Positions 1,863 to 62,889 of a stretch of DNA of 64,000 bases are shown one piece after another (position 1 is the first letter of the stretch; every line of letters starts with the position of its first letter). The DNA is taken from assembly GCA_015680685.1 (NCBI GenBank), contig MNCI01002249.1, forward strand, positions 844,424 through 908,423, read 5' to 3'. The stretch is from Gnetum montanum. Its lineage: Eukaryota; Plantae; Gnetophyta. The notes below the pieces were generated by a model. The model did not search any database and had not been told where the DNA came from. It saw only the letters and a program-made list of their open reading frames with translations. The position numbers and the translations under genes are program-made.

Positions 1863-3300
1863 TGTTATGAATGTGAAGTTAAATCTTGTGGCTCTATTAT
1901 TTATTTGGTAAATATGGTCTTTTTGTAAGGGATGACCTAGTGCTAGTTATTGGGTTCTTTCTAGATGGTTCTGTATCTGTTTTTAATGTAAAAGTGATTC
2001 TTTGGATTGTATGATAGCACCACATTTGGATCAACTGAACAATAAGAGCCAAGCTTATCTTGTAAAGGTTTCTCTCTATTCTAAAGGGCTTTACCTAATC
2101 TTACATCTCTTGTTTTGGTTGTGATTGTGGTTCTACACTTTGTTCATTATTTTCAAGATACTTCAAATTGTGCTATCTCTGTGTTATCTTTTGCATGTTA
2201 TGATTTTTCTGGTCCATTTACTCTGTTCCATTATTTTTCTTAACACAATGGTATTAGAGCAAGGTTAAGGGCTTGCTATTTTCTCTATGGCAAGTTCTTC
2301 TATGCACGCTGCACCAAAGTTCCATAGTTCACAGATGCAGTTTTGTAAAGAACAAATTTTCTAAAAGCCATAAAGTGGAAGCTATAAAAATTTTAAGTTC
2401 CAACTATGCTATTCATTGCAATAAAGAAACAAGTGGAGAGGTACATTTTAAATTACTTCTTTTGATTCACTGGACTTTTTGGTTTTTTATTTTGAAGTTT
2501 CTTGCTTGAGTGGAAGACTAGGAGTTACAGATCCAAACATGGATCTTGTTCAAAAGTTTAATGGAAGTTTCCACAGCCCTTGTAAGATGAAGATCCTAAA
2601 TTTGCTGTACAAAAGGGAATAGAATCTTGTTTTAACTAAAAAACCTTCTTCCATGACTGATGAAGATTGTCAAAATTTGTATCAAAAAGCATTGGGCTCA
2701 ATTCGCAAGTGCATTGCAAATCCAATTATAGTAGAATAGCAAGAGAAAAAATCAACATTCAATTTGATTAGAAAATTGGATTCAAGGTTTCCAACTACTA
2801 CATCCTACAACAGGATTTTTCTACATAAGAAATTACATCAACTTGAAATGCAAGAAGCTAACATGCCCTTTGAATTCTCAAACAAATTTAATTCCACAAT
2901 AGCAAATCTAAAAACAAGGCTTCAAATTTCAAGTGATGGGTGTCATTGATCTTGTTGGGAGCATTGTCAAGAAGTTGGTGTCATGTGGTGACAACAATCA
3001 ATGTCACTACCTTCATAGCAATAGACTATGAAGAAGTTGTTGTCATTCTTAAAATGGAAGAACTACATAGTTCTCAAAGTGGATAAACTTCATCAAAAAG
3101 AAAGGCACTAGTTACAAAGAGCAGTAAAAGAAAAAGGATATCAATTTGTTAGAAATGTGGAAAATGTCATTATGTAAAGAGAGATTGCAGGTTTGGTTTT
3201 GTTGGAGTCGTATCTAAAGCACATGCGGGAATTAAATTTTGTTAACTGTTTTGTTCTCTAAACATGTAAATATGGACGTTGTATAATTTGCAATGCCTTT
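1863..3300 (+). mobile_element. Copia gag-only element fragment (5' LTR, PBS, decayed gag)
   Basis: LTR ends TAACA at 2245; PBS TGGTATTAGAGC at 2249-2260; decayed Copia gag (KFNG, NRIFLHKKLHQLEMQE, CxxC knuckle near 3150). Confidence 0.7.
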
Positions 3301-8494: not shown

Positions 8495-8618
8495 CTGAGT
8501 TATAGATAAAACAATTCCATAAAGGGAATTCTGAAACTGGATAGATCCAAGGGGTCCTGAGTTATAGATAAAACAATTCCATAAAGGGAATTCTGAAACT
8601 GGATAGATCCAAGGGGTC
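8495..8618. repeat. Perfect 62-bp tandem duplication
   Basis: 8495-8556 is identical to 8557-8618. Confidence 0.9.
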
Positions 8619-13042: not shown

Positions 13043-15204
13043 CTACTACAACACATCACAGTAAAGCGTTAAATTGGTACCATGTTTTGTCAATTCTGTG
13101 ACTAAGAAAAACAACCATTAGTAAGAAGTCTACAGATAATATTTTTGACATGAATTATTGTGGCAGATACATTGTTATATTTTTGTTTTTTTCAAAAAAA
13201 GACAGTTATGTTGTAAAGCACTCCAACTCAATATAATATCATCACAGCATACCAAGACACTGCCAAAAACCTATGACACACCAACTGCATAAAAACAAGC
13301 ATATCGTATTTAAAGTTGCATAAGTTCTGTATCTAACTGATATGCCTTTTCTTCATAATACCCAACAAAAAATTTCTCAGGAATCCAATCATATAAGCTT
13401 TCTCCATGTCAACAAAGATTATTCAAATGTTTCTCCTTAAAAAGAAAACTGCCTTCATAGTTAACCTTCCCAGCATGAATCCAAGGTAATTTTCAGATAT
13501 TATTCATTCTTGTCATAAACACCACTCCACTACCGTGAGGGTAAAGCACTGCAAAGTGATACTTAGAGCACTCAAGTAAGCCTCTGATGGGAAGCATGCT
13601 GCAAAGTGAGGATGCAGTAAGCACAGTGATTGGAAACATAATCTCAAAAGTATGTTGAAGTGAACAAAGTGAGCATGTGAGTTGAAGCCTACTTCCTTGG
13701 TCACGTTCGTATAAAATACTTCCAAAAGTAGGCCTAAGGAAACACAATGGCTCAAGCTTTGACGAGGGAGACAAGGTATGGGCTACCCTTATTATATTTT
13801 TTTGCATGTTAAACAATGCCAATACTGGAAGTTAATGAAATCACAAGTCAAGGCATGATACAATGGTTGGATTCCTATGAATTCATTATTAACTTAGGAT
13901 ATGAAATGTGTTGGTGATTGGTTAAATGGCCTATAATTCTTCTTTGTAATTAGTTGAGTTGTGCTAATGTGTGTTGTGTTTATTGCTATGCATGCAAGTA
14001 TCAGGTATGTATTGTATGCTGATTCAGCATATTTTAATGTAATTAATAAAAAAATGTTGAATAGAGATGGAGCTGAAATGTTGTATTGTTTGTGAGGTTA
14101 CTACTATGTTTTGAATCTTTTGATTGTTCATATGTTGTATGACCTATGTGCATTGAAATGATTTCTTGAACTAATTAAAATGTTTCTTTGTGAACTGTAA
14201 GTATCAATGTGGTTATCTCATGTACAAGCTGTGTTGTGTGTTCATACAAGTTGTGGATCTGTTATCTCCAGGTGTTATTGTGTGGATACTAACTATTGAG
14301 CAATCAAATCTGAAAAGAAGAAAAAGAAGGATTCTTTATGTTATGACTTAAAGGGCTGAAATAGGCATGTTTTGCTTAGCATGAATCATTTGTTAAAACA
14401 CACACATACACATTGCTGAGGAACTTGACAAGTGAATCAAGTGGAAGGAACATGACCTATGCATCAAGAATATAAGGTATATCATGGTTGTGTTATTTTA
14501 AAATAATGAACATGCAGAATGTTGTGTATGATTTCAATGCACTATTCTTTAGAGTTTTAATAGAATATAAGTATCCCTCCATAGCTGTAAAAAGTTCTCC
14601 TGATAACCTTTCAAGGCATCGTAATATAATGTTTGAATGTTTTATAACTGTCAATTTTCTATTCTGTTAGATTAGGAGGAACTGAACCTAAGATCTGACA
14701 CAATCAGAATTCCAAGATGTTGAAAGTTGCAGATCTGGAAATTGAACCTGCAACCTGTTAGAATATATTTTTAATAATGTTTAGCAGCGATCAAGAAATT
14801 AATGAATTTAAAAAATAATGAAAGTTAAGCTTCACCCCCTTGTCTGTCAATTTATTCTCATATTGAGAGTGATAAAATCAGTGAAAATCTTTGCCCTTCA
14901 ATATTTCTCTTACTAAATATCTGTTAGGTTCTTTCACATGTGATTTGCAAGTGAGGAACCTGGTTTCTATGCAATTATTATTCTCATAAAACTCCTCCAT
15001 CAATTGCCTCACCAAGCAAACAACCTCAAGAGCTAAACTTTCTAACAGGAGCCTGAATAGATTTTCAGGTGCAAAAACTATCGCAGACAGATGACAAATA
15101 AGGAAATTTAATTAAATGACAGTGATACGTATGATGTCTAATGCTTCTGAAAACATTTAAGTTAATCCAGAAATAAAGCAAAAAAATACAAAGAAAAAGA
15201 AAAC

Positions 15205-15294
15205 CTCTATAATGATTCGCAACAATATATCTTGATGTTGACCAGGGAGCTTTGATAGGCCCGACAGCATTTCAGGTGCAATATGCATTTTTTC
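15205..15294 (-). CDS. ECM29: ECM29 exon 3
   Basis: ag|EKMHIAPEMLSGLSKLPGQHQDILLRIIIE|gt; 90 nt; resembles ECM29 SKLPxQHQEIILR. Confidence 0.9.
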
Positions 15295-15406
15295 CTATTA
15301 TACAGAACCAAAACAGCAAGCATATAGATTTATTAAATTTGTATAATTATGTAATTTTTTTTGTAAAAAATCAGAAAAAAGGAGTTTTAGCAGGGGAAAG
15401 AAAAAC

Positions 15407-15574
15407 CTCTAAAGGAAGCCGATTTAATGCCATCTCAATGTAGATGATGGCAAAGTTTTTCACCATTGGTGCACTGTCCAGGCTTTGGTATAGATTCCAT
15501 AATTCGTTTATTGGCAGTTGAATAGCTGACTGATCTTTCACTCGCCTGTTAATATGTTTCAATATCTCCATGAC
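15407..15574 (-). CDS. ECM29: ECM29 exon 2
   Basis: ttacag|VMEILKHINRRVK...APMVKNFAIIYIEMALNRLPLE|gt; 168 nt, phase 0/0. Confidence 0.92.
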
Positions 15575-16399
15575 CTGTAAAACATTGTAACCAATATAGT
15601 GCACAAGCTCGTTTCCACAAAATTTTTTATGTTTAATGTTTAATTTAGAAACAACTTCAACTCGGGAATTTTAAATCGGAAAATTCCAATAAACTATTTC
15701 AAGAAAACATAAAGCCTAAAATCATGTTATAAAGCTATACCATATGTAATATCATATTCTGTAATACTTCAAAGAAATATTTTGTCAGCCTTATTTGACA
15801 TTAAAATTTGAGTCGCTAAAACAACGCACGCCTACGGAATAACAGCAAATACAAGTAAAGTATTTACTTCTTAAAACATTATACAACTGACCATAACTGA
15901 CCATGAAAAATCAGCTTACTCAAACGGTTGGAAACTGAATATAGTTTTCACAGTACAAACTTCCTATGTTTCTTCAAATTTCAGCAAATTGGATTAGTAC
16001 AAAGGGAACTCAGAAATATTCCCAATGGTCAGCTACTTCCATGTGCCATTTACCGATGACCAATTACTTACATATCAAATATTCTTTTGATTACTTCCGC
16101 GTTAAATAAACCAGTGCAATGGCAAAACTGATAAGCAACGTACGTATTGTAAATTAGACAGCATCTTTCTCGCAGAACTTTCTTGCCGAAAAATACGAAT
16201 GTCAGCACAAGAGTGCTGGTTGCGATGAGAAAGTAACGATAATAGGGCACAAGAACAAGCAAACGGAGAAAGAATTAACAAGATTATCAGCCCTTCAGGT
16301 GTCAATTCTAAAGCCTCTGCACTAGGGCATGCAAAAATACAAAACTTATGTTTCTTTGGCGTGCAAAAAATCATCGTAGTTGAAGGAGAGACGGCGTAC

Positions 16400-16570
16400 T
16401 TTCTGTCTAATAGAAGTTTGAGGCGAAGAGAGACATGAAATAACGAAAGGGAGGAGCTTCGAGAGCACAGTCTGTAGCTTGGAGTCGTCGGTGAGGGCGA
16501 GGCGCGTGAGCATTCGATCTAGCATGGCTTCCTTCTCCATGTCTTCATTCGCTGTTGCTGCCTCTGCCAT
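16400..16570 (-). CDS. ECM29: ECM29 proteasome adaptor/scaffold, exon 1
   Basis: ATG at 16570; MAEAATANEDMEKEAMLDRMLTRLALTDDSKLQTVLSKLLPFVISCLSSPQTSIRQK matches the plant ECM29 N-terminus (MLDRMLTRLALCDDSKL); GT donor at 16399. Confidence 0.93.
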
Positions 16571-18237: not shown

Positions 18238-21200
18238 TGTGGACCTTTTGGTGTGTCAAAACATTAAGAAAAATAGAGACAAAGGTTATGTTATGTAGTT
18301 GTTGTGGGTGTAGGACCAAGATGAGATGACAAGGAACACATTGATGTAGACAAAAGGAGAAAGTTTTCCACAAGGTTTCAAGGTCTCATCCACAAAAGGA
18401 AAGCTCAAAGGAAAAGAATTCAAAGAACATGGACAAGCAAAGTCGTCATCATTGATGCACGCAAAAATGCAAGATTATGAAGAGGGAACGAAGAATTCAT
18501 CATGGAAATGAAGAAGAAGAAAGATGTCTTCAAGAAATAGTAGACGTCTTGGCAGAATTGGAAGATGCACAAACAAAGATGTCTCCAAGAAACAATAAAC
18601 GTCTTTTATTAGGCAAAGATGCCTTCACCAGACAAAGACATCTTCACAGAATGTAGGCCAATTTAAAAAAGATGTCTTTCACTAGACAAAGATGTCTTCC
18701 CAGAATGAAGATTTCAGAAAGACATCTTTCCTAGACAAAGACGTCTTACTAAAATAAAAGGCAAATATAGAAAGATGTCTCAAGCACAAAGAAGACATCT
18801 TCCATGACCACTAGCTACCATTAGCTAGTCGTTGCACAAGTTCCAAGATGGATTTGGAAACATGATAGCTATAAAAAGACATCATATGCATTTGGAAATG
18901 TGAAAGCTTATGTGTAATCATTGTCTAATCATTTGTCAATCATTGTAATCATTGTTTCTCTTCATTATATTATCATTTGTCCATTATAAAGTGTGTTGTA
19001 GCTTAAAGTACAAGGATCAACAAACTGAGTTGCATTCCTTCCTTGTATTTGTTCTCCCTTGTTGCCCTATAGGATTGAGGTGCTTCTTACAGGAAGGCAT
19101 CTTGATTGAGCTTGTTGGGATCTTACAAGATTAAGTGGTTGAAGTTGTAGCACAACACTCCTAAGTAGAGCTTAAGATTGTAAATGTTGTGAAAGCTTGG
19201 AAACCACATTCCAAGCCTAATGAGACCTTGCAGAATTGAGTGGTTGGTGTAGTGTCACAACACTCCAGAGTTGGGCTTGAAGATTGTACAAGGTGTGGAC
19301 CCTTCAATCCACATTTGAAAGTAACAAAGTTCTGAGGTGTGCTTATGATCTACCCTCTAAGTGTGGACTACCTAAGTTGGGGAACCATGTTAAATTTGGT
19401 GTATGTGCTTTTTCCAAAGAATTTCAATTTAGGGAACTTATTCATCCCCCCACATTCTAAGCTCAATGATCCACAAGTGGTATTGGAGCCTCGTACTCGT
19501 TTTTGTAATCATCAACTTCAAGAGTGAACAATGGAGGGGACATCTTACACAAAGCCACCTATGTTCAATGGATTCAACTTCACATTTGAAAAGCTAGAAT
19601 GCAAGGATTCTTCGAATCCATAGAGTTTGAAGTGTGGGAGTCAATCCTTGAAGGCTTCACTCTAACTATTGACAACTCCACCGACATTGTCAACCCTTGC
19701 CACAAATGAACATAAGAGGAAAAGGATGAGTTCATGTTTGATTCAAAAGTAAAAAAATTATTTATTTTATGCATTGAATAAATCTAAATTTAATAGAGTA
19801 GCAGGATGTCAAATAGCCAAAGAAATTTGGCAAACTTTAGAAGCTACTTTTGAAGAAACATCTATTATTAAGCAATCGAAATTGTTAGTTTTACAAAGTG
19901 AATACGATAGACTCAAAATGAAAGAAGGTGAGAAAATAAAAAATTATTTTTATAGAGCTAATGATCTTGTTGTAGCTATTAGAGGAACAAGTAAAGATTT
20001 GTCTAAAAGCGATGTCATTGTCAAAATGATCAGAACTCTACAACCAAAGTAGAGACCATAGGTCATGGCTATGGAGGAGATCAAAAATTTCTCAACCTTA
20101 TAATTTGAAGAGTTTCAAAATGCTCCCATTACTTATGAAATGAATCTCACAAGTGAAGGAGTGATCCAAGAAAGACCTATTGCTCTAAAGATTGCATCCA
20201 AGGAGAAGGAGTTCAATGAACATGATGATGATAGCTAAGATGAGATTACCTCTCTCAAGGAAGTTGCAACAATTGCTAACAAGAAGAAACAAGGAGGCAT
20301 CACAACAAAGAACCCAATTTTCTCAAAGGTAGAAAAAGAGGTAGAAATTTTTTAAATTCTAACTTAGATTTTAATTCCATAGAATGTTGGGTTTGTGGAG
20401 GAAGAGGTCATATGACCTTTGAATGTCCTAATGATCTTAGTGATAGCAAGATATAGCCAAAGAATAGATCCAATGATGAGAAACTAAAAAAGACCAACTT
20501 TTATACAAGTTGGAATGATGATGAACAAAGTGAAGAATAAGCATGTAATTCTTCCAAAAATTCACATCTCATATGCATGGTAGTTACAAATGAAATTTCC
20601 TCACATATGGCTGAACAAGATGGTAAGTGTGACAAAAGGTATAGCAAACTTAAAGAAGAAAATTTTCATCTACATCAATTGATTAGGAAGGCAAAGAAAT
20701 TTGTAATTTCTAAATTGGATGCTATTCATGCTAAAGTGAAAGAAGAGATCTTAGACATAAAAAGCTGAGATTCAACAACTAACCTCTTTTAATAATGATT
20801 GCAACAAGGTTCAAGAAGAGGAGACTCCTGAAAAATAGCCAACGAATTTAGAGGAAGCCACACATGAAAATTCAAGCTCAAGCATAGACAAGTTTGATAA
20901 TTTTGATCATAAGGATAATACTTTATTTGTTTGTAAAAATTGTGGTTGTAAGTAAACTCTTAACTATACTCATGATAATCAAAACAAAATTAATGCTTGG
21001 TATTGTCAAAAAGGCTCTGGTAAGGAAATTGTGTAGGTACCAATAAGCAAGAATGAAGAGAAGTGGAGAATTGAAAATGATGTAATAAGTGATCAAAGGT
21101 TTTATCATAAAGAGCATGAATAAATACAAACATCACATATATGATCTAATGAAAGAGAACCAAAGGATGAGAAGGTACTTCATGATAGGGGACCTCATCT

Positions 21201-22897
21201 CAAACTCCATTATTCTTCTCTTCTCCCCTACAAGCAAGGTAAGTCAAGGTAAGCTTCCATCTCTTTGCTTGCTAGTTAATAAGAATGGTATTTGAAGTCC
21301 AAAATTATTTGTATCTTGAAAAATGGTGGCATAATTGCTTAGAGCATCCCTTACATTCATTTTTGAGCTTGATATAATTGGTTCTATGAAAATATATGTG
21401 TAGCACTTATTTCAATTTCCTTTGGAACATCATCTTATTGGTTTTTGTCGTGTTTTTAATCTTGTTTAATCTGAACTTATTGTGATGATCTGCTTCTAAG
21501 CTCATGGCCTTTGGAATATTTTTGCTATTTAGATAAGACAAGCCTTTGAAACATCCTATCAATATTACTGATTACAAACCTTAGTCTTAACAGTTGAGCT
21601 TAATGTTGACCTACAGTTGTAGTGTTTTTATGATTTACAACATTTGTACATTAATATCCCAAGATAAGCAGCACATGTGTAGGGGGAGCCTGTTCCTCAT
21701 TTTGAAGATCACCAATGTAGGAAAAGTCTTTAGAGACTTCAACCAAGAGACACTAAAATAACAAAATATTCCAAAATGAGCAAGATAAGGACATCAAGAG
21801 GTATTTTTCTTTTAAGTGGATGGCTTAGTCTTGAATTTGTGTTTTTGATATCCTTTGGCATGATTATCACATCATTTTGGAAAAATGGTTGTGTTTGTGA
21901 CATTACCTTGTACAAAGATCAAAATGTGCATGTTTCTCTCATGGTTTCCATATCCTTTGTGTTGATGTTTTTCAAATTTTTGGTTGAATATAAAGATACA
22001 AGTTCTAATGAGATAATGGTTTCAATTAGATAGGCTACTTGATCTATATTTGGTCTTTAGCATCAAATTATGTGTTGTAGATCCTTGTTTTGAACTGATA
22101 AGAGTAAGTCTTGATGTATCATTAGCCTACCTATTCGATATTCAAGCATAAGTTGAAGTAAGAAGTACCTATATTTTATGAAAGAATGCAAATAGTGATA
22201 TTATTCCTTACAAAAATATGAGCAAGAACATGATCATTCTAATTATGGGAAAGTACCCATGATTTTAATTGAAATATGCTTTGAGTAGTTTGCCTTGAGA
22301 TGTACTTCCTAGCTCATGAATTTAAAATATGGCATGGCTAGTTTCACATTATGAAGTTGTATTGTTGTATACACCTTATCATATAAGATATGCCTTAATC
22401 TTTTGTTCATGTTTTTAAAAGGATGGAAAATATTTGAACATTAAAAGAACCATGCACTATAAACTACTAATGACTCATTAATTTAGAGATAGGTTACTTG
22501 ATCTTCCAGGCTTATACTTCACTTCAAGCTTTAAGTTTGAATATCACTTGGAAGGCTTGGATCAGCTCTTGACAAATTCAGGGCAACTCATCTTGGAACT
22601 TTGTGTTGAAAAATGTGTGCACTTTAATTGAGCTTCTTACTTAGCTAAATGTTTTTTTTTTTGGATTATGACATTATGCATATTCTTTAATCAATTTATG
22701 TGCCTTATCCCTTTTGTTGCTGTTCANAAACATTAAGAAAAATGGAGACAAAGGTTGTGTTGTGTGGTTGTTTTGGTTGCAGGACCAAAATGAGATGACA
22801 AGGAACACACTGATGTAGGAAAAAGGAGAAAGTCATCCACAAGGTTTCAAGGTCTCATCCACAAAAGGAAAGCTCAAAGGAAAAGAATTCAAAGAAC
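18238..22897 (+). mobile_element. SIRE/Maximus-type Ty1/Copia element, pol deleted, 3' LTR interrupted
   Basis: 5' LTR 18238-19475 (TGTGGA...TCCACA, TTCATCCCCCC end motif); PBS TGGTATTGGAGC at 19478; gag from 19531; 3' LTR copy 22728-22897 follows an N at 22727. Confidence 0.85.
19531..20770 (+). pseudogene. Decayed SIRE gag
   Basis: MEGTSYTKPPMFNG.., AKEIWQTLEATFEETS, KMKEGEKI, zinc knuckle CWVCGGRGHMTFEC; multiple stops. Confidence 0.85.
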
Positions 22898-24282: not shown

Positions 24283-27045
24283 GCAAGTTCGACCCAAGGT
24301 GGAGCAAAACAACCTAGGAGAGGTCGAAGACAAGTTCCTGCCGGACAACATAATGAACAGGAGGTGCATTCATTTAGCATCCATCAAGACGAACCTCCTA
24401 CCAGACGGTCCGGATAGGCAGAAGGAGGAGCTGCTGTGCCTGAACTGGGACAACAACTCACGTTGCCCCCCGAATGTGTTCAGGCCATCCACGCGAAGTC
24501 CACGATTGCTTCGGTAATTGTGGAACTCAACTTCGAATCTTTTGCAGAGTTCGCTCCTGAGGCTGTTAGGGATCACCTTAAAGGGTCTCCCTTCTGGCCT
24601 GTCCTCTCTGAACAAAGTGCCTGGTACTTAGGAGAAACGTACTTGTTTTGGCACAATAAAGAGCAAGGCACCACAGTAAACATCGGTGGTGTGTCAGTAG
24701 ATTTTTCTGCACAGGCGATTTCGGAAGTGTTAAATCTTCCGAATTCAGGCCCCCATGTTGCTCGGTTATCCACCCGATCCGACCCTGATGTGCGAAAGGA
24801 TTGGCTAGAGAAGGCTTATGGCAGAGATAAGGCTTTTGGTGAGCTGACCACGGAGGAGCGAGTCTATTTCAAAATCGGGACTTATCACCTCTTCCCCACA
24901 AAAGGCTTAAAGAGAATATCAACGTATGCGGCAAGAGGATGTGCAGTGTTGATGGGAAAGGTTAACGCTAACCTTCCTCATCTATATTTGACGGAGATCC
25001 TAAGGCGATTCGAAGAACGGAAGACAGGAAAAATGGCACTCCCTTTTCCCTGTCTTATCAGAAAACTGTGCCGTCGGGCAGGTATTCGGGGATATACAAA
25101 TGACGTCCTCCGAAAGGCCCAAAATGCTTCTTATGCTGAATTGTTAAAGGCGCCAGCTCCAAGAAAGAGTACTGGCGAAGAGTTGGGACCAGATGAAGAA
25201 AATGAAGAACAGGTGACTGAAACCCCTGCAACTCAGCTTGCAGGACCCAGTCAACCTCCAGCCACAGGTCCTAGCCAACAACAAGAAGCAGAACCCGGCA
25301 CAGGCCAGGATCAGCCGCCGCCGCAAGACTATAGACCGTCAATGAGCCACTTGAGGGCTATTGCTGAGACGGTCAGTTGGGGAAGTCGTGATGACACCAG
25401 TCTTTTCCGTGTCATCGATGATGCCAGGCAGCCTACAATTTCAATAGATCGCACAAGGGGTGAGTTGTCAGTACAAACAGGAGGAGGGGAAAGTAGATGG
25501 TCACAACAGATTTCTGGACATGCGGCATCTTTTCAAGTGCAATTAGAGACTGGTGAAGGGGCCACAGTGGTGGTCATGCAACACCAGGATGCCGCAGGAG
25601 CAGCTGATGTGGTAACTGACTACATCAAGGAATCTTTTCATGTACCTGTTGTGCCACCGGCAGATCTTTCAGGAGCACAGGATGCTCAAACCATTGCCGG
25701 AACCTCAATGACTCCTGCAGAACATGAGGATGCATTGGACAGATTGCTTCAAACAGGACAAGTTTTAACGTCTCTGTTTGACATCCCTCAGGATGTAACC
25801 GCAATGCAATCAGACCTCATTTCAACCAAGGGGAAACTGGTCATATCCGAAGTAAGGGCTGAACATGCTGAGGCTGAAGTGTAGAAATTACAAGAGCAGC
25901 TCATCGCCTTACAGGCAGCACAGCGGGATCCCTTGCGATTGGTTCCCGCAGACCAGTTAGACAATTTTAAAACCGAGCAATTAACCAAATTAATTACAGA
26001 AAATAAAAAGGTGGCAGAAGAAAAGGAGATGGCCACTTGGGATGCCTCCGCAGCACAGGCGCAAACTCATGTGCATCTTAAGGCACTCAAGGCCTTACAA
26101 GAAAAAAACAAATAGTTGATTGCTGATAACCTTCGGTTGACCTCTGTGGAGAAGCAAAAGAATGTTCTCGATGAGCACTTTCATCGGCTTCGGGAACAAT
26201 TCATTTGAGTCAACCAAGACGTAAGCCGTTTAGCCAGAGAAAATAGAACCCTCTCAATGGAGGAGATGCGCGCTATTCGACAGAAGTCAGCCATCGAAAT
26301 TAGCGCGTGGCAGAATGAGGCTAAATGACACGAGAAGCTGAAGGAGCACTTCCGTGACCAGGTGGGGATGTACAAACAGATCCTGGAAAAGGATATCCTT
26401 ATGGCAAAAGCCCAAATCAACAACATCAGTGCCCAGCACACTGATTGGGGGGCCATATTGGACACTTATGCCTATGCCCACCAGGCGGAAATTAAGAACC
26501 GGGACCTGCAGATCCAAGACTTAACTGAATACATGGAGTTGGCAAATCTTCGGTATGCCAACCTGGCCATGTTAACGGCAGGACGCCTGAGGTCAGAGCT
26601 CGAGCAGCAGGTAGCTTCCACCTACATCAAATATGAAGCAGAGTTTACAGAACAAAAGAAGTTGGCGGAAAAATTAGATGTTGCAAATTCTGAACTTGCG
26701 GTGGTAAAAGAGAGCTACCAAGGGTAGAAAGATGTAGCATCCGACTTGGCTCGACGGCTCACAGAACTTCACGAATATAAAGACAAAGCCAGAGCCTTTG
26801 AAGAGGAACGACGGGTGTTTGCGGCATGGTACGTCAAAGCTAATCAGATGTTCCCGCAACTACCCTGTCCGTGGGAAGTGCCGACTCCATCAAACATTGG
26901 AGTATCAGCATGGACGACACAAGACCCTCGGACCGAAGAGGAGAAGCTCCAGGCTATTCTTTAGTATCATCAATCTTCAAAACTTGGAGCACGTGACAAA
27001 GGGAAAGCACCCATGGAGGAGCCACCGCCACCAGGAACTACATGA
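24283..27045 (+). pseudogene. Athila-like extra (env-position) ORF, young copy, ~920 codons, N-terminus missing
   Basis: One continuous frame broken only by stops at 24415, 25882, 26113, 26206, 26326, 26725 and 26962; plant transposon protein (PF20167-like) pattern GVSVDFSAQAISEVLNLP...LPFPCLIRKLCRRAGI; long coiled-coil C-terminal half. Confidence 0.8.
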
Positions 27046-27182: not shown

Positions 27183-27216
27183 CTCGAGGACGAGTTTTTA
27201 TTCAGTCGTGGGGGTA
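27183..27216 (+). promoter_or_regulatory. Athila-type PPT region
   Basis: CTCGAGGACGAG...GTCGTGGGGGTA immediately before the LTR TGATGA. Confidence 0.75.
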
Positions 27217-28190
27217 TGATGAGACGCGGTTTGCGTCGGCCGCGATATCGCGTACGCGATATCGCGTCCTTCCCTACGATATCGCGTACGCGATATCGCA
27301 GTCCGCCGCCATGTCTATAAATAAGAGGCGGCACTCCCTTGTTTGGGGATCCCAGTTTTAGTGTAGCGAAGCTCTGGCAGTTTGATCCCTCCAGAGTTAG
27401 AATTTTCCCGTGTCTGCCCGCAGTGTGGTGAATGTGATTGTACGGTGTCTTTATTCGAGTGTGCCGTACTTGGACACGCACATGACCGGCAATAAAGATC
27501 GAGATTACTTCATCATTGCAGCATTCACTTAGTTTATTTATTTGTTATTTATTTAATGTTATTTATTGCTTTCATAGCGCGGTGTGAGTACGACTTAACT
27601 ACGAGCATCTACGGGTGTGTACGGCTAGTTAAGGAATCGGTTACTCATCGCGATTAGTTTCTCACCCTTAAACTCCTAGAAGCGGAACGAGTACGACTTG
27701 ATTACGAGCATTTAAGTGTGACTGCTTGGTAGCCCAGTGGTGTAGCTAGGGGGATCTACGCTTGGTAACCCAGTGGCGTATTTGGGGTCTGCGCTTGGTA
27801 ATCCCAGTGGCGTACCTAGGCCTATGCTTGGTAGTCCCAGTGGCAGTCGTGCATGAAGTCCAAGATGTGTACGGTTGATCAAGGAATCGGTTGCTCGTCG
27901 CACTTAGGCTAGATTAGATTTTCTTACCCTTTTTCCTCTTAGCTTAGATTAGTTAACATTATTTTCCATTGCCATCAGGAGTAGCGTTAGAATTAGAATA
28001 CATCATACACCTCATCTAGACTAAACCATACGTGACATATGCAAAACTAGTCTAGATGGGAAGATAGCGAACTGCGACCTAAGGCTAACTATCTAGGTGC
28101 CACAACTAGTCCATCTGCGGAGTTCGACCGGATCACGCGTGCGATGCTCGTTTCGTATGGTTGAGTGTAGGGGTACCTCGCCACTCATCA
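27217..28190 (+). mobile_element. Athila-like 3' LTR, young and CpG-intact (copy A)
   Basis: TGATGA...TCATCA termini; CTATAAATA at ~27315; homologous to five other LTR copies in the window. Confidence 0.92.
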
Positions 28191-29980
28191 ATAACAATAC
28201 AAGATCATGAACTTTAAAAGTTCTTTTCAAATCCCTTCTATTGAGCCACTTTTAACTTGGGAAGCATTCTTTAGTAAATTATCTTTAGCTCTATCCATTT
28301 TGGCTTCTCTTCTGATGAGCAAGGTCATGAAACTTCTATCTTTACCATTTTTCTTACTATACTTTTGTACAATTTCCGAGGTTGAACTTATAATCTTATT
28401 GATAATTATTGCAAGCAAACCATAGACCAAGTTATAAGCTAATGTTCCAATAACATTCTTAAATCTAATATGATCAGTCCATAATGCATATTGCAAGTAA
28501 TCAATCCAATTTCTTGGATTCCCATCCATCGACTTCTTAATATAGGAAATTAGCTTTTTATTTGTAGATTTAGCTAAGCCATTTGTTTAAGGAGAATAAT
28601 TTGAAGAAGAAAATAGAAAGATGGACCTTTTTAATGTCCATGTTATAAACTCTTCACATTGAAAAGTGGATCCATTATCACATACCAATACTAGTTTTAA
28701 AGGAGCTTTAGCCCTTTTGATTTTCGGTCCATAAATTTGACATTTGTAACATCTTTGTATTTTCAAATTAATATCTTGATACATACTAGGCCAATAAAAA
28801 TCATAATGGAGTATATGTTGCATTTTGGACTTAGGAGATTCATACAACAAATTAGAATGATCATGGAATTGTTCTAGGATAGGAATGATTTAATCATTGT
28901 GAACACATTCCAACAAAACCCCTCTAAAATCCTTTCTGTATAAAATCCCATTTTTAACCATAAATTTATTCTCCTTTTTGAAGAAAGCTCTATTTTAACT
29001 TGTAGTTAAGTTTTTCAGAACCTTTCGTATATCAAGGAATTCTAGAATCTCATCATACCAATTTCCCTTATGAGTCTTCAACACACATCATCTTCTTTAG
29101 CCATTAGCTTGGCTAATCCCATTCCTTTAATGGTTTTAAATATTTCCAATGAAAATCTAAAACCTTGAAGCTTAATGAGCTACTTTCCTCTCTTCAATCC
29201 AATTTCATTTTGGGCTAATTATTGTTTAACCATAGGCTCTATTAGCATAATGTGAACTAATGAACTTTCCAAATAATATTTGAAATGTTGAAGTGCCTTA
29301 ATAACTACAAACTCTTGTTTCTCTAAGCCTGAATAATTAAGCTATGAACCTTTTAATTGATATCCAAAAAATTTGATTGATTCATCTTGACCTTCATCTT
29401 TTTGAGTTAAAACGATAGCAATTGAATCATTTGAAGCAAAAGCATATAACCAAAAGTTGTCTTTCAATTTTTGTTTTACTAAGTAAGGATTTTATTGAAT
29501 GGATTTCTTAATTTCTGATAAAGCTTTCTCTATTTCTAGTGTTTTCTCTACTAGGTTGTCTTTCTTTAGCATATGTATCAAAGGTATAGTAATTTCAGTA
29601 AATCAAGGAATAAATTTCTTAATGAAATTTATCTTTACAAAGAAAGATCTAAGATATTTCTTACTTGTAGGATGTTCAATATTTTGTATTGCTTGAACTC
29701 GAGAGTCATCTATAGAAATTCCTTCTTGATAGATTACATGGCCTAGTAAACTTCGAAATTTAACTCCAAAGATAAATTTCTTAGGATTTAACGAAATACC
29801 ATACTCATGACATCTGCTAAAAACTTGTTGAAAATGACCAATATGATCTTGCTTTCTTTTTGAAAAGACAGTGATATCGTCGAAATAAACCATAATGAAC
29901 TCACCTATTAAACCTTTAAAGGCTAAATCCATTGCTCTTTGAAAAGTAGCTCCATCATTTGATAGCCTAAATGACATTAG
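28191..29980 (-). pseudogene. Non-chromovirus (Tat-like) Gypsy pol remnant: RT-RNase H-integrase
   Basis: FQRAMDLAF..VYFDDITVFS, GISLNPKK, FYWPSMYQD..CYKCQ, DNGSTF, YALWT; lineage differs from the Athila-like copies. Confidence 0.8.
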
Positions 29981-29989
29981 AAAGCGATT

Positions 29990-31349
29990 AGAAAGCTTCA
30001 TCTCTAGTAAGTTTTGGCCAAGAATGATAGGGTCTAATAAGTGAGCTTTCAATTCTATAACCTTAACTACCAACAATTAATTACTATTAATGGCTTCCTT
30101 AAGTTACATTTATGCAATTAGAAGTTTACCCCTTATCTCCAGTAGTAGTAATTGGATTGTTGAAATATCTTTTGGAATATCAAAGATCTTTGGAATTAGT
30201 TGCCTAACTCCAATTAGTTGCTCTAGAACTTTCTCATGTTGCACTGCACTTATTCCCTTACTCTCGCTTCTATAGATATTTGAATATTTGCCATTACAAA
30301 AATATTTAGAATAGAGGCTGCGTGAGCACTTAAAGCCTCTTCAATTATATTTTTCATAACCTATGATATTATTTCCTAGCCCTTGTGTGACATAACTAGG
30401 ACTATTACACCTTCATCTTCTTCTAACATTATGGAGAAAGCCACAACACTTCCAGAGATTTTGCGAAGTGGTTCTTGTGGCACAGACACTGTGATTTCTT
30501 ATGTGTTGGGATTAGTGTGAAAGGAGCCAAGTTCTTCCGTGTAGAGAACAAATGGGCTAGGACATTTGCTAGCCAATTGATAGTCCTTACCACTTCATTG
30601 AGATGACTCATGGATAAATGGTACATTAAGAACTTGCCACTACTCCCATAGGCTTGTTTCTACAACTACTATTCCCTAAGTTTCCTTAAGCATTTAGCTA
30701 CTGCTGGCATCTCTAGTGTCATCTCAGGTGCTATTAATGATGGTGGAGTTTCCACCTTCTCTTGAAGCTTGGCAAGGGCCTTATCTTTCATCATTTCTTG
30801 CCATGATTTGGTAGGGGCCCTATAGATCATATCATTGGAATAGTGAGCCATTCCTCTTCTTTTGTAAAGTTTTCTAATGAGGCATAGGAAGGGGAGTGTC
30901 TTCTAACCCTTCTCATTCTCCTTAAACTACTTCTTGATTTTCAAGAAGATGAATTACAGAAGGTTGACTTGGAATTTCTTACTTAGAGCTGGACATGCCC
31001 TTGCATAAAACGTAGTGACTTTTCTTGGTCCAAAGTTTAGTTCTTGGAGAATTGTGTGTTAGACTTTCCTACTCTATACCTTTTCTAACTAGGCCTCTGT
31101 TAGAGTAACTTCCAGGTTTGCCTTGGATCTTGGGACCTCATCCTACTTGGATTACCTTGTCTTTGCAGTGGGAACTTGGTGAATAGATTCCACCTCAAGT
31201 TCTTGTTGTAGGAGATTTGTAGCATGAGTCACCTCAACAACTTGCTTCTGCTACTATGGTGGTTACTACTACTATCCCCTACCTCCTCTTAGTCTCTTTT
31301 CCTTGGGTTGTGATGATCCACCTACTTGTGATCCCTATTTTAGTACCAT
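29990..31349 (-). pseudogene. Extra-ORF copy of element B (decayed, truncated)
   Basis: Starts MVLK*GSQVGGSSQPKEKR; contains LPFLCLIRKL..HYSNDMIYRA and YHLSMSHLNEVVRTINW, homologous to the 24.3-27 kb ORF. Confidence 0.75.
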
Positions 31350-36013: not shown

Positions 36014-36897
36014 TGATGAATCATGGTTTGCTACGTGCTGATATCAGACCCCTGATATTAGGTACAAGATATCAAGTCTGATGAGTCCCGATATCGGACC
36101 CCCGATATCGTAGCCTAGTTAGCGATATTAGATACGTGATATCGTGGTTCCCGTGTTAGCCTATAAATACACAATTGGGCGCACAAGAAAGTCATAGGAA
36201 AAGTTAGTGTTAGAGTAGAGTCTTTTTGTTCATTTTTTAGTTCTTCTCAACTTTTTTTCCCCAGTGCATGCTTACAGTGTGATGATTGTAATTGTACAAG
36301 ACCTTTATTCAAGTGTGACGTACTTGGACATGCACATGATCAGAAATAAAGATCGAGATTACTTCATCATTGCAACATTCACTTAGTTTAATTATATAAT
36401 TTTTATTCATTGCTTTCTTACTTAATACTTCTTTACCCTCAACTCCTATCCCTGTTAGTAAATGTGAAATGGGTACGACTTAATCATGAGCATTTAAGTG
36501 TGACTACTTGGTATCCTAGTAGCGTACCTAGGATATGCACTTGGTAATCCCAGTAGTAGTCATACACGAGGTCCAAGATGTGTACGGATGATTAAGGGTG
36601 GATGCTCATCACACTTAGGCTAGCTTAGACTCTCTTCACCCTTTCCCTTTTAGGTTGATCAAAGTTATTTCCATTACCTCTAGGAGTAGCACTAGTTTAA
36701 GACCACATCATACACCTCACTTTGGACTAAACCATATGTGACAAAGCAAATACTAGTCCAAGTGGGAAGATAGCAAACTGTGATCAACGAGTAACTATCT
36801 AGATACCACAACTAGCCTATCTACGAAGTTCAACCAGATCATGTGTGAAACACTCATATTCATATAGTTGAGTGTAGGGGTAGCCCGCCACTCATCA
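36014..36897 (+). mobile_element. Athila-like solo LTR inserted in the pol of B
   Basis: TGATGA...TCATCA; perfect 5-bp TSD ATGCT on both sides. Confidence 0.93.
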
Positions 36898-54173: not shown

Positions 54174-56261
54174 ACAATGTTATTAGATTTTTGATGAACA
54201 AACTAGCGGTAATCCAAGAGTGATAAGATGGCTTGTCATTCAACAAGAATTTGATATCACAATGACCAATAGGAAAGGAGTTGAAAATGTTGTAGATGAT
54301 TACCTATCAAGATTAAGATGGGAACCTTAGAAAAATAAAGAGCTACTATCAAACTAATTTTCTGATGAAAATTTATTCATAAAGACAACAATGGTCATAG
54401 ATTCAATAGTGATGTTTCGGTTATTGATTACATGACATATCTTATTACACAATAGCTTCTTGTTAAATGGAATAAGAAATAAAAATAGTAGTTTCTTCAT
54501 AGGGTGAAGAGGTATATGAAAGTTAATGGAAACCTATACAAGATATATGTTAATGGGTTGATAAGATGATGTGTTCCAGAAGAAAGTCTATAAAGAGTCT
54601 TGTAGGATGTATATGAAGGACCATATGGTGGTCATGATGCAAGATGATGGACAAAACTGAAATTGATAATGGTAGGCTACTTTTGACCTACCATATTTAG
54701 GGATGCACATCAATCTACATAGTTTTGTGAGAGATGCCAGAGAGATGGAGGATTGACAACTAGAAATAAAGGGTCACAACAATGGTTATAACCATTAGAA
54801 CCATTTGATATCTAGGGAATTAACTTTATGGGGTCTATCACACCAATGTTGAATGGAAAGTCTTATATAATAGTAAATATTAATTATTGTACAAAATGTG
54901 TAAAAATAGTTGTAGTTAACGATTGCACAACCACAACAACTATAAAATTATTTCATTAACATGTGGTGAATAAATTTGGAATACCCCACATGCTAATATT
55001 AGATAACAAAACTCACTTTACTAGAGCTACATTTAAGAAGCTAATGCACCAATGTAGGGTCAACCATAAATTAACTACATCTTATCATTCCCAAGGGAAT
55101 GGTCAAGCTAAAGTGACTACCAGAGAAATCACAAGAATATTAACTAGAAGTGTGTGTTAGTGTAGGAAGGATTGGAGCACTAAACTTAATAATGCTCTAT
55201 GGATATATAGAACAACTTGGAAACTTCTTATAGGGTATTTACCATATGAGTTAGTTTATGGAAAACTACCTTGTCTACTAATCCAAGTAGAGCTTAATAC
55301 CATTGTAAATGCTAGTACCCTTGACCTAGATCTAAATTTAGCTAAAAAAGAATGCCTATTGAAACTAAATCTCTTACTGATAAAGTTCTTTACTATAATG
55401 AAAATCATGTACTACAAAAGACTAAGTTTCAAACTTTATTGAAAGGACTTTATATCGTTCATGCAATATTCTAATCAGGCACCATGTAAATCTATTACCC
55501 GATAAAATCACAAAAACTTATTCTTGTTAATATTTAATAAGTGAAACCATTTTGTGACCTTCCCAACTACTCCAAAGACTCCACCTCACATGCTAGACCA
55601 TTTAACACCCATTCAATCTTCCAAGTTGTTACTCTTAATGATAGTTATGGGGGTGTCAAGTTTGACACTTAGGCATCAATTCCTCTTTTTATATTATTTT
55701 AACATTTTTCACCTTTCTTACCAATTTTTACATTCTTTAATATCTTGTTCATTCTTTTATACTTTTTCTATTTCTTCATCATTTTTCATTGTTTAATATC
55801 TTTTAAATTTTTTATACATTTTTCTATTCTTACCATTTCCCATGATTCTTAATATTTTTCATGTACATACTTTTGTTTATTTTTCTAATAAAGTGTAGAG
55901 GAATAAAATAAGATGTAGTCCAAACAATGAGAATTTCACCCTATGTTATCAAATCATTAAAGGACTAATTATATATATAGTGAGACCACATTGTCCATCC
56001 ACTCATTTCTAATAATAAGAAGTTCTTATCATGGCCATAATAACATTCTTTTTATAATAAAATTAAAATAAACTTGTGATCATTATGCCTGGATGGAAAA
56101 GTAAAGAAGTAAGTGGGAATGAAAAGGGTGTGACATTAAGGGGATTTATGGATTCTCTAAGATTGGTACTATAAGTCCTATCTTGCTGACGAGTTGTATT
56201 ATTTACTTGAGTTTTAACAAAAAATTGAAGTATATCTAAAATAAGTACTACCTTATCATGT

Positions 56262-57877: not shown

Positions 57878-59540
57878 ATGCTTCCTAAAAGACCTGTAGT
57901 AGAAGGACCATCATAACAAAGGGGAAAGAGACCTAGAGGAACATGACAAGCTAGAGAACAAACTTCACATGCATAGCAAGAGGCCTAATTCTACAGTATC
58001 CATGAACCAACACCTGCGATAGAATAATCTACATAGGTAGAAGTTAATGCATTGCCTGCTTAGAAGCAAGAATAGCACCTTACATTATCAAAGGAATATC
58101 TCCAAGCAATCCAAGAGAAGTCTATCATGTCTACTATCATAATGAAACCAAACTTTGGACCATTCATGGAGTTTGCCCTTGCTAATGTTCTTGAAAAACT
58201 CCAAGACTCTCCTTTATGATCCACCATTTCAAACAATGGTGAATGATACTTGGGAGAAGTTTATCAATTTTGGAAGAACAAGTAGGATCATGCTATTGTG
58301 AAAATAGAGGGAATCACAATGCCATACTCTGTTGAAGCAATAGCCAAGGCATTGAACCTTCCAAACATCAAAGCTAACATCATTTAAATCTCTTCAAGGT
58401 CCAACAAATAGGCAAGAAAGCTATGGTTACAAAGGGCCTATGGGACTATTAAAAAGGAATACAATGGATTGATCATAGTTGAGAAGACTTACATCAAGAT
58501 TGAGACCTACCATTTCATCCCAGCAAAAGATTGAATAGAATTTTTACCTATGCTGCTAGAGGAAGAGCTATTCTAATGTGTAAATTCCATACCAACATGA
58601 CCCATCTACTAATGTGAAAATTCTAATGTGAAAATTCAAACAAGATTTATGGAAGAGAAGGTAGGGAAACTTACTCTACCATTCCCTCACCTTATCAAAA
58701 ACTTGTGCTAATAAGTAGGAATTCTGGGTTAAACCAATGATATTTTTCATAAAGCCCAAAATGCCTATATGGCAAAATTTCAAAAGTAGTGTTGCCAAAG
58801 AAAGACCAAGTGGAAAAACTAGTAGAAACTGAAGGAGTAGTTGGGTTTACACCACCAAGCAATGTTCTAGCCATAGGAATAGAGCAAGTAGGACCCAGTG
58901 GATCAACACCAGCAACCGATAGACCAAGGCCAAGTGCTCCTTTGGCATAAAAAGATTCCAAACCCTTACTAACACATTTGCAACAAATTGGTAAAACAAT
59001 AATTTGGGAAAGTAGAGAAGTTGCAAGTATGTACAGGATAAGGAACAATTCAACCAAGCCTACCATATTAATAGGACTTGCAAGTGGTTAAATCTCATTG
59101 TAGACAGGAAAAGTTGAGGAATGGGCATAACAAATATCTAGGAATGTCACATCTTTGTAAGTGATATTAGAAATAAAAGAAGGAGCCATAGCGATGATGA
59201 TGCAACACTAGGATATAGTAGGAATAATTGATGTTATCACAGATCATATCAAAGAGTCTTTTAATATTCCCATTATGCCACTGACTGATCTTACTAGAGA
59301 GAAATATGTAGAAAAAATAGACAAAACATCAATGACCCCAAAAAAGCATTAAGATATCTTAGACCAATTGCTATAGACTAGGAAAGTGATGAAAAATATC
59401 TTTGATATCCTAAGTGATATCATTGCAGTGCAATCAAAAATAATTTCAACTAAGGGTAAGCTAGTCATGACTGAGATCAAATTACAACATGTTAAAAATG
59501 AAGTGCAAAGGCTAGAAAAGAAATTGATTGCATTTACCAT
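57878..59540 (+). pseudogene. Extra-ORF copy of C, truncated in the coiled coil
   Basis: MLPKRPVVEGPS...; homologous to 24.3-25.9 kb (IFDILSDIIAVQSKIISTKGKLVMTE). Confidence 0.82.
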
Positions 59541-60208: not shown

Positions 60209-62889
60209 ATGGCCCTAAAGAGGACACTAGAAGAAGGACCCTCACAACTGGAAAACAAAAGACCAAGAGGTTGAGGAAGAGGTCACATTGGAGAACAAAC
60301 TCCACCAACAAAGCATGCAGAGTAAGAAGCCTAGTCTTTTAATATCCATCACCAAACACCTACTACTGAATACTTTGCCCAAGTAGAGGTTGAAGCACCA
60401 CAAGGACAGAACCTTACGCTATCACCTGAATGTCTTCAAGCCATCTAAGAAAAGTCAATCATGTCCATAGTTATTGTGGAATTCAATTTTGGTCCTTTTA
60501 TGGAGTTTTCACTAGAGACTGTTAGAACACAACTCCAATCATCTCCCTGGTGGCCTACCTTGTCAACAAGTGGAGAATGGTACTTAGGGGAAATCCTTCA
60601 ATTTTGATAAAACAAGCAAGCTAATTCCATGGTAAAGATAAAAGGAGTTTCCATGTCATATTTAGTGGAGGTGATAGTCAAAGTCCTCAATTTACCAAAT
60701 GAAGGGGCTAATGTAACATAGATATACACATGGTCTGATACTGATGTAGAGAGATTGTGGCTACACTGAGCCTATGGCAAGAAGGATAAGGAATATAGTG
60801 AGCTAACTACAAAGGAAAAGATATATTTCAAAATTGGCACCTATCATCTATTCCCAACCAAAAGGCTTAACAGGATTTCAACTTATGTGGCTAGAGGAAG
60901 CACCATATTGATGGAAAACTTAAATGTCAATATTGTCCATCTGTACTTTCTCAAAATCCAAAGATGATTTGAAGAGAAGAAGGTGGGGAAGCCAATAGTA
61001 CCATTCCCCTACCTGATCAGAAAGTTGTGCAAACAAGCAGACATACTTGGTTATACAAACAATGTTTTGAGGATAGATTAAAACACCTCATTTGTTGAGA
61101 TTTCAAAACCCATGCGTCCAAAGAAGGATCAATTGGAGAAATAGGTAGGTACTGAGGGAGCTATAGGCTCAAATCCTATTGACACCATTCAAGCTTCTAG
61201 CCAACAATAACAAGAAAGACTTAGTAGCTAGCCACCAGTTGATCGGCAACAAAAACAACAAGTTCCACCGTTGCCTCCATAGGATTATCAACCTTCTATG
61301 AGCCATCTATAGCAAATTGTAGATTCAATAAGCTAGGAACAAGAGAAGGGGCCAATCTCTATAAGGTCATAGAAGATGCAATCAGATCCACCATCTCAAC
61401 AGATCCTACTAATGGGCAGATATCATTGCATTTAGCAGGAGGGGATACTTGGTCACAAAAGATCTCAGGGAACGTTGCATCATTCCAATTAATGTTGGAA
61501 ACTAGAGAAGGAGCCATAGTGGTGGTCATGGAACATCAAGATCTAATAGGAACACTAAAGTGATTACTAATCACATGAAGGAGTCCTTCAATGTTCTTAT
61601 TGTGCCACTAGTCAATATCTCTAGAGTGTGACGCTCAAATGTTGGTTGGAACGTCAATGACTTTAGCTAAACATGAAGAAAACTTAGATAGGCTATTGAA
61701 GATGAGGCAAGCTATGCAACATCTTTTTGATATCCCTAGTGATATCATTGCAGTCCAATTTAAACTATTAGCCACCAAAGAAAAGTTTGTTATGGCCAAG
61801 ACTAGGGCAGAGCATATCGAGAATGAAGTCTAGAAACTACAAGAAGAGCTCATGACCTTAAGGACAGAAAGAAGAGATCCCATGTGATTCATGACACCTA
61901 ACCAACTTGATTAGTTTTAGATAGACCATGTAAATCATCTCATTGACCATAATTTGAAGATGGAGTGAGAGAAGGAGAAAGCGGTATAAGATGCCTCAGT
62001 GACAAAAGCACAAATGTATGTACATGCCAAGGCACTCACTACTCTAGAGGAAGAGAATAAACAATTAGCTATAGACAATGTTGAGTTCACTAACATTGAG
62101 TGCCAAAAGAACATTGTCGAAGAAAGCATCCAACAACTTCGAGAACAATTAGTTCAAGTCAACTAAGATACGAGTCGCTTGGCCTATGAGAGCAGGATCC
62201 TATCAATGGAAGATGTTCACACAATGAGATAGGTATATACAATTGAGATCAGCATGTGGTAGAATGAGGCTAAGAAGCATGGATGACACAAAGAGCATTT
62301 TTGAGATAAGGTGGACATGTACAAGCAGATTAATGAGAAAGAAATTTAGATGGATAAAGCCAAGATAAAGTCCATTTTAGTGCAAAATCCAAATTGGTAA
62401 TCAATCTTGGATAGTCTAGCCCATGTCCACCAAGTAGAAATTAAAAATAAAGACTTGCAGATTGATGATCTCATAGAGTACATGAGGTTAGTGAATCTAC
62501 GCTATGCTAACCTGGCCATGTTAACTATAGGTGGGTCCAAGAATGAATTAGAATAGCAAGTAGTGATCGTGTATGTTATGTATGAGAAAGAATTGGGTAA
62601 CAGAAAAGATGCACCTTAAAAGTTACACATGGAAAAATTAGAATTAGAAGTTGTTAAGGCTGGCTAACAAGGCTATAAAGATGTTGTAGCTAATCTAGCT
62701 CACAGAATGTTTGACTATTAGGAATCAAGAAAAATAGCCAGGTTATTTGAAGAAGAACGATGGTAGTTTGTAGCCTAGTATGTAAAGGAAAATCAAATGT
62801 TCTCACAACTACCATGCCCATGGGATGTACTAGCTCCATCACACATCACTCAACAAGGATGGACAATACAAAATCCTAGGATATGACAA
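60209..62889 (+). pseudogene. Near full-length decayed extra-ORF copy
   Basis: ttgtag|ATG start; collinear with the young copy through YFKIGTYHLFP, NLRYANLAMLT and FSQLPCPWDV; cut off at TGTTGA 62890. Confidence 0.85.

What the first reader, a model, noticed from the sequence alone, without database searches (positions are those of the whole stretch)
24283..27045. Large three-domain accessory ORF in the env position, lacking obvious envelope features
Seen: with seven stops repaired the ORF reads ~920 aa. It has a basic N-terminus (MxxKR...KRPRG in the other copies), a PF20167-like domain, a Q/P/E linker, a ~100-aa beta-rich-looking block (SMSHLRAIAETVSW...IKESFHVPVVP) shared by the other copies, ~350 aa of heptad-like sequence and a WYVKANQMFPQLPCPW tail. 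I see no signal peptide or transmembrane stretch. Established: Athila elements carry env-like ORFs of unknown function. Inference: a nuclear or scaffold protein rather than an envelope; the middle domain may be undescribed. It may partner the LTR modules in a two-component system.
Basis: partly seen in the sequence, partly recalled or inferred. Interest (0 to 1): 0.72.

Follow-up and report, generated by a model that had tools for sequence, protein, structure and literature searches.

The report
Envelope-less Athila accessory coiled-coil gene
Where retroviruses keep their envelope gene, an abundant plant retrotransposon family carries a conserved gene of about 920 codons with no membrane anchor, which likely encodes a nuclear, self-assembling helper protein; it is a longer variant of known Athila accessory genes with one small domain of no known family.

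Summary
24283-27045(+) is one 920-codon frame with 7 stops and no frameshift. It is cut at the 5' end and followed by a polypurine tract and an Athila LTR. It carries PF20167 (E 2.8e-13), an acidic linker, a ~110-aa middle domain and ~370 aa of heptad sequence, with no membrane-spanning stretch. Three older copies lie in the window. All structured parts evolved under purifying selection (dN/dS 0.14 against copy B; middle domain 0.21). Six of the seven stops are minority states in reads of the family, so this is a decayed copy of a real gene. The reading 'nuclear or scaffold, not envelope' is plausible but already in print: a sunflower Athila PF20167 ORF with a predicted NLS, and a predicted coiled-coil pentamer of the Arabidopsis Athila-domain protein. 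New here are the middle domain (no relative found; only a non-significant PH/PTB-fold hint from a poor model) and the very long coil. Nothing links the protein to the LTR repeats. The scan had no earlier look-alike of this ORF, but noted another PF20167 fusion in this genome. Verdict: new variant of a known kind, moderate interest.

The parts
24283..27045 (+). Accessory ORF, copy A: 920 codons, 7 in-frame stops, 5'-truncated
   Evidence: read depth falls to near zero just upstream (table 2)
24463..25152 (+). N-terminal globular domain (residues 61-290, net charge +7); PF20167 core at 24655-25086
   Evidence: dN/dS upper bound 0.22 against B, 0.11 against C
25153..25329 (+). Acidic P/E/Q linker, poorly conserved
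25330..25662 (+). Middle domain, about 110 aa; predicted helix, five strands, helix (low confidence); no known family
25705..26817 (+). Long helical, heptad-rich region (residues 475-845), likely coiled coil
   Evidence: selection
26818..27045 (+). C-terminal tail with the conserved aromatic/proline motif; end uncertain
27208..27216 (+). Polypurine tract next to the LTR
27217..28190 (+). 3' LTR, TG...CA, 974 bp; TATA box at about 27316
   Evidence: reads of the family run from this LTR end into an Athila-type PBS
27241..27299 (+). GATATC palindrome array upstream of the TATA box (4 units here, 4-8 in related LTRs)
27724..27844 (+). 33-36 bp module array in the LTR (4 units here, 2-3 in related LTRs)
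60209..62880 (+). Copy B: whole architecture, older (33 stops in 853 aligned codons, several frameshifts), 53% identical
57878..59532 (+). Copy C: N-terminal 542 codons, older, 46% identical
54183..55400 (+). Decayed RNase H end and integrase 2.5 kb upstream of copy C
   Evidence: rve, E 1.1e-4, under the cut-off; RNase H end read by eye from recalled motifs
30020..31349 (-). Copy D: distant (30% identical), with an internal deletion in the PF20167 part

Best explanation
This is a decayed, 5'-truncated copy of a purifying-selected Athila 3' accessory gene without membrane anchor, whose product is likely a nuclear protein that likely self-assembles through its long coiled coil and would act in trans on the element's own chromatin to favour its expression. 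Shown: position, domain order, selection, lack of a hydrophobic span. Inferred: import by the bipartite basic motif seen in copies B and C; oligomerisation by the coil; DNA or chromatin contact by the basic PF20167 domain; recruitment of a host partner by the middle domain. Nuclear oligomeric accessory factor about 0.55; VANC-like anti-silencing as the specific job about 0.25.
For: Purifying selection in every structured part: A-B dN/dS 0.14 (0.08-0.21, 815 codons), middle domain 0.21 (0.09-0.38), A-C 0.27. Of 63 best-supported differences between this copy and the family's reads, 44 are at third codon positions and 46 are synonymous, against an expected share of 0.22-0.35. Six of 7 stops are minority states. 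Bipartite NLS pattern in B and C; heptad test 0 of 200 shuffles; no hydrophobic span. Published parallels: sunflower Athila 14 ORF(+), 487 aa, PF20167 and predicted nuclear (PMC11728184); Arabidopsis Athila-domain protein and VANC both modelled as coiled-coil pentamers (PMC13547354); PMD plus coiled-coil extra ORFs in the sister Tat clade (PMC4408406); maize Grande gene23 product is nuclear (PMC7264820).
Against: No function is known for any Athila ORF (ATHILAfinder preprint), and only about a quarter of Brassicaceae elements keep it. The NLS pattern is absent from copy D and the 45 kb remnant, and copy A lacks that end. Both fold models are poor (mean pLDDT 40.7 and 45.5), so kinship to VANC/PMD is untested. 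dN/dS is pairwise, near saturation of dS, and comparisons with D are weaker (0.31-0.74). RNA reads cover the ORF but come mostly from diverged copies (105 of 3577 at 99% or more in X24) and are not clearly sense outside the first 700 bases, so a dedicated mRNA is not shown.
Confidence: 0.55

Rival explanations
1. RNA chaperone or particle scaffold: the coil builds an oligomer that coats element RNA or particles, as LINE-1 ORF1p does (recalled), and helps nuclear entry or cell-to-cell passage.
For: Long coil plus basic domain; chaperone and plasmodesmata roles have been proposed for plant env-like proteins (PMC7264820).
Against: No RRM, zinc knuckle or movement-protein match in Pfam or PDB sequences; NLS pattern in two copies.
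Confidence: 0.2
2. Integration or chromosome-axis tether: the coil and the middle domain hold the integration complex at particular chromatin, for instance heterochromatin or meiotic axes.
For: ATLANTYS extra ORF resembles the meiotic axis protein ASY2 in structure (PMC13547354, section 10); SMC-like coils occur in Retand and Ogre extra ORFs; weak PH/PTB hint for the middle domain.
Against: No SMC or ASY match; no insertion-site data here; many Athila elements transpose without the ORF.
Confidence: 0.17
3. True envelope (membrane fusion) protein.
For: Env position and sense orientation; coiled coil, as in class I fusion proteins.
Against: No hydrophobic span or signal-like N-terminus; the N-terminus is basic; only 5 cysteines and 3 N-glycosylation sequons.
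Confidence: 0.03
4. Chance open frame or neutral passenger.
For: Seven stops in this copy.
Against: Selection tests; Pfam hit above cut-off; stops are minority states.
Confidence: 0.01

Closest known systems
Sunflower Athila 14 3' aORF(+) (PF20167 Transposase_32; PMC11728184)
   Same: Athila, sense ORF behind pol, PF20167 at a similar place (133-312 there, 125-268 here), basic NLS-like motif, predicted nuclear
   Different: 487 aa there against about 930 here; no middle domain or 370-aa coil described in the passages read
Arabidopsis ATHILA ORF (PF03078 family; PMC13547354, ATHILAfinder preprint, PMC6317226)
   Same: Athila-specific ORF downstream of pol, unknown function, related domain family, extended coiled coil with predicted pentamer
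   Different: No PF03078 hit here; extra middle domain and a much longer coil
Tat/Ogre/Retand extra ORFs: PMD plus coiled coil, Transposase_28 plus SMC-like coil (PMC4408406, PMC11963269)
   Same: Globular transposon domain followed by a long coiled coil; proposed nuclear regulatory role
   Different: Other lineage, mostly antisense or 5' position, other Pfam family; no middle domain reported
VANC anti-silencing proteins of VANDAL transposons (PMC13547354)
   Same: Accessory gene, globular domain plus coiled coil; element carries short repeat arrays
   Different: DNA transposon; fold kinship and motif binding not shown here

Membership tests
Athila lineage (Ty3/gypsy, OTA) | tRNA-Asp/Asn primer binding site behind the LTR | tested here: met
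   Reads running past this LTR's end match the PBS given in the ATHILAfinder preprint; a decayed form follows the related LTR at 49564; tRNA-Asp 72%, Asn 12% in REXdb
Athila lineage (Ty3/gypsy, OTA) | TG...CA LTR with PPT, long pol-LTR region with a sense extra ORF | tested here: met
Athila lineage (Ty3/gypsy, OTA) | RT/RH/INT phylogeny, absence of aRH, 5-bp target duplication | not testable with these tools
   Copy A has lost its 5' part; no genome is held; only a decayed integrase lies upstream of copy C
Athila accessory ORF, Transposase_32 type | PF20167 above the gathering score | tested here: met
   50.6 bits against 45; copy B 32.5 bits, E 1e-7; the piece of C scanned had no hit
ATHILA ORF-1 (PF03078) | PF03078 match | tested here: not met
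   Only PF20167 was listed at E up to 10
Envelope / env-like membrane proteins | Transmembrane anchor | tested here: not met
   Best 19-residue hydropathy 0.99, at most 1.40 in pieces of B and C
Envelope / env-like membrane proteins | Signal peptide | tested here: not met
   N-termini of B, C and D are basic and polar; no dedicated predictor was available
Envelope / env-like membrane proteins | Spliced subgenomic mRNA | tested here: inconclusive
   The upstream region is missing in copy A; no joint inside the ORF among the 15 rows shown, 59 not shown
VANC / plant mobile domain anti-silencing factors | VANC/MAIN fold of the N-terminal domain | tested here: inconclusive
   Model pLDDT 40.7; searches gave nothing usable
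VANC / plant mobile domain anti-silencing factors | Sequence-specific binding of element repeats and loss of methylation in trans | not testable with these tools
   Needs bench work
PH-like superfold (middle domain) | Seven-strand sandwich closed by a C-terminal helix | tested here: inconclusive
   Predicted helix, five strands, helix at pLDDT 25-44; 8 of 48 listed Foldseek rows are PH or PTB domains, best E 0.16, rmsd 13-18 A; VIA lists were filled by the helices

The most novel reading that the evidence does not exclude
This Athila family has built a three-module nuclear adaptor: a VANC-like domain that reads the GATATC arrays in its own LTRs, a captured PH/PTB-fold domain that recruits a host chromatin factor, and a 370-residue coiled coil that makes the complex multivalent. 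It would be the first sequence-specific anti-silencing or tethering system in an Athila retrotransposon and would explain the family's very high abundance.
Probability: 0.1. Interest if true: 0.8.

Novelty: new variant of a known kind. Interest (0 to 1): 0.38.

Why it matters
What the Athila extra ORF does is an open question (stated in the 2026 ATHILAfinder preprint). This family gives a case under strong, long-lasting selection with very many natural variants, enough for deep alignments, and it argues again that the 'env-like' label is wrong for these genes. The middle domain is a small, conserved, unannotated module that may point to the host partner. The finding does not by itself give a function.

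Tried and rejected
No genome is held for this window. Word-based protein searches found nothing: whole protein (7996 candidates scored), middle domain (9 candidates), shorter proteins (7999 candidates). The HMMER search of 1.84 billion representatives gave 2 short unnamed fragments, both in the PF20167 region. These collections are evidently thin in plant transposon proteins, so the blank for the middle domain is weak evidence of novelty. Metagenome scan: 54 pattern matches, none confirmed. PDB sequence searches: nothing significant. The Atlas did not answer. Both AlphaFold models were low-confidence and all six fold searches were uninformative; the middle domain was not folded on its own. The four-copy complex job on a coil piece gave no verdict. 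No RNA holder was listed among indexed runs. Programmed read-through at codon 534, suggested by a stop shared with copy B, was rejected: 77-84% of contig depth and 14 of 23 reads in X24 are not broken there. A separate membrane ORF nearby: only short frames under 90 codons in the spacer of C and the 3' UTR, not followed up. Wright and Voytas 2002 was not held. Paper searches; PF20167 occurs in 2 held papers, and none of the 15 papers listed of 18 contains 'pleckstrin homology'. Additional files 1 and 3 of PMC6317226 (element table, sequences) and the supplements of PMC13547354 were not seen and may hold similar ORFs.

Full report
Observation. The interval 24283-27045 on the + strand is a single frame of 920 codons with seven in-frame stops and no frameshift. 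It lies in a 49% GC island within a 35% GC window of plant DNA full of decayed retroelements; exons of a host ECM29 gene lie at 13-16.5 kb on the other strand (one exon scanned). Read with X at the stops, the protein has one Pfam match, PF20167 Transposase_32, residues 125-268, E 2.8e-13, above its cut-off. An acidic P/E/Q linker follows (291-349), then a block of about 110 residues (350-460), a helical heptad-rich region (475-845) and a short tail. The heptad test passes clearly (35% of windows against 7% in shuffles, 0 of 200; the PF20167 region scores 0%), though a Fourier test gave only z 1.7. There is no hydrophobic span (best 0.99).

Context. The ORF is followed by a 160-bp untranslated stretch, a polypurine tract (27208-27216) and a 974-bp LTR (27217-28190). 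Four related LTRs lie in the window; two of them are 90% and 79% identical to it. Reads of the family that run past the LTR end continue into a primer binding site matching the tRNA-Asp/Asn site that the ATHILAfinder preprint gives for Athila (passages); a decayed form stands in the window behind the LTR at 49564. Copy A has lost everything upstream of the ORF, including about 8 codons. Copy C (57878-59532) shows the layout: integrase, 2.5-kb spacer, ORF in sense. Copy B (60209-62880) has the whole architecture and copy D is a distant piece. B and C begin with a motif that fits a bipartite NLS; D and a remnant at 45 kb do not. Copy A is the youngest: 7 stops in 920 codons and CpG o/e 0.62, against 33 in 853, 25 in 504 and 8 in 281 codons and CpG o/e 0.06-0.16.

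Is it a real gene? Pairwise dN/dS (Nei-Gojobori, stop codons dropped) is 0.14 for A-B (0.08-0.21), 0.27 for A-C and 0.24 for B-C. By part in A-B: middle domain 0.21, tail 0.13, PF20167 region and coil with saturated dS and upper bounds of 0.22; the linker is about 1 and aligns badly. Pairs with D give 0.31-0.74 on poorer alignments. These are not internal-branch values, and decay after insertion pushes them up. Independently, the best-supported differences between copy A and reads of the family (80 rows shown; 6 stop rows and 2 LTR rows dropped, 63 distinct left; 1401 rows not shown) fall at third positions in 44 of 63 cases and are synonymous in 46, against an expected share of 0.22-0.35. At six of the seven stops most reads or contig depth are not broken (10 of 15, 27 of 43 and 21 of 26 reads of X24; 64-84% of depth in two DNA runs); the seventh was not shown. 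This removes the idea of programmed read-through at codon 534. The family is abundant: 13,469 and 11,351 contigs lie on a 471-base piece in runs of two organism labels (not a copy number), and 20 runs in 12 studies hold part of the ORF. RNA reads cover the whole ORF in three RNA runs, but nearly all come from diverged copies; two libraries are strand-biased over the first 700 bases only, one of them with 57 molecules starting at one place. Transcription of the family is likely; a dedicated mRNA is not shown.

Relatives and folds. Outside the window only two short unnamed fragments matched, both in the PF20167 region. The middle domain has no match in Pfam or the protein collections, but these hold few plant transposon proteins. 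Models from 6-7 sequences were poor. The middle domain came out as helix, five strands, helix at pLDDT 25-44, followed by confident long helices. In Foldseek 8 of 48 listed rows were PH or PTB domains, including ranks 1 and 2, but the best E was 0.16. That is a lead only.

Mechanism. The best reading is a nuclear accessory factor: imported by the basic N-terminus, oligomerised by the coil, touching DNA or chromatin with the basic PF20167 domain and a host partner with the middle domain, and acting in trans for the family. Position, architecture, selection and lack of an anchor are shown; every functional step is inferred. The LTR does hold two repeat arrays whose unit number varies (GATATC palindromes upstream of the TATA box, 4-8 units; a 33-36 bp module downstream, 2-4 units). 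Such arrays are as easily explained as sites for host transcription factors (own knowledge), and an element at 43.7-50.4 kb keeps decayed arrays although its ORF is cut to a remnant. Nothing ties the protein to them.

Comparison with what is known. Sense extra ORFs are common in Athila; PF03078 is found in 167 elements of REXdb and an SMC-type coil in only one Athila ORF (PMC6317226, passages and additional files 4 and 5). A 487-aa sunflower Athila ORF with PF20167 and a predicted NLS is published (PMC11728184, passages). The Arabidopsis Athila-domain protein is modelled as a coiled-coil pentamer like VANC (PMC13547354, passages and sections 10-12). Domain-plus-coil extra ORFs are known from Tat, Ogre and Retand (PMC4408406 and PMC11963269, passages; PMC7264820, parts 1-2 of 3). 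PMC1142308 (passages) gives the older env-like view. The gene is therefore a member of the Athila PF20167 accessory ORFs and not an envelope. It differs in length, in the middle domain and in the size of the coil. An earlier, unchecked note reports another PF20167 fusion, with a J-domain, in the same genome (e1-10417404), which would fit a habit of adding adaptor modules to this domain.

Verdict. Real feature, correctly described; new variant of a known kind; interest 0.38. The most novel reading not excluded, a sequence-specific anti-silencing or tethering adaptor with a captured PH-like module, has about 0.1 probability and would deserve 0.8.

Noticed in passing
window 43673-50420 (-): Athila-like element with two LTRs 84% identical, gag at 48385-49491 and a decayed PBS; no pol was seen in the 5-kb interior, and the accessory ORF is cut to an N-terminal remnant at about 45003-44700 (weak match to copy C, 1 of 300 shuffles).
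   Followed up: partly
window 27241-27299, 27724-27844; 53282-54172 (-); 36080-36897: LTR repeat arrays with variable unit number; LTR A also has an internal duplication (27616-27657 like 27866-27907), and reads show many variant joints in these arrays.
   Followed up: partly
window 54183-62880 (+): Integrase, spacer, ORF copy C, then a second partial spacer and ORF copy B in tandem: a nested or recombined pair of related elements; an LTR on the other strand is inserted at 53282-54172.
   Followed up: partly
window 13300-16520 (-): Exons of a host ECM29 proteasome-adaptor gene (PF13001, E 4.6e-18 for one exon).
   Followed up: no
window 28188-30076 (-): Decayed RT and integrase of another Ty3/gypsy element, into which copy A's LTR end abuts; copy D abuts its RT.
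   Followed up: no
window 18248-22897 (+) and 2452-2988 (+): Copia-type gag remnants (PF14223); direct repeats at 18248-18428 and 22717-22897, 90% identical, may be its LTRs.
   Followed up: no
window 8495-8618: Perfect 62-bp tandem duplication.
   Followed up: no
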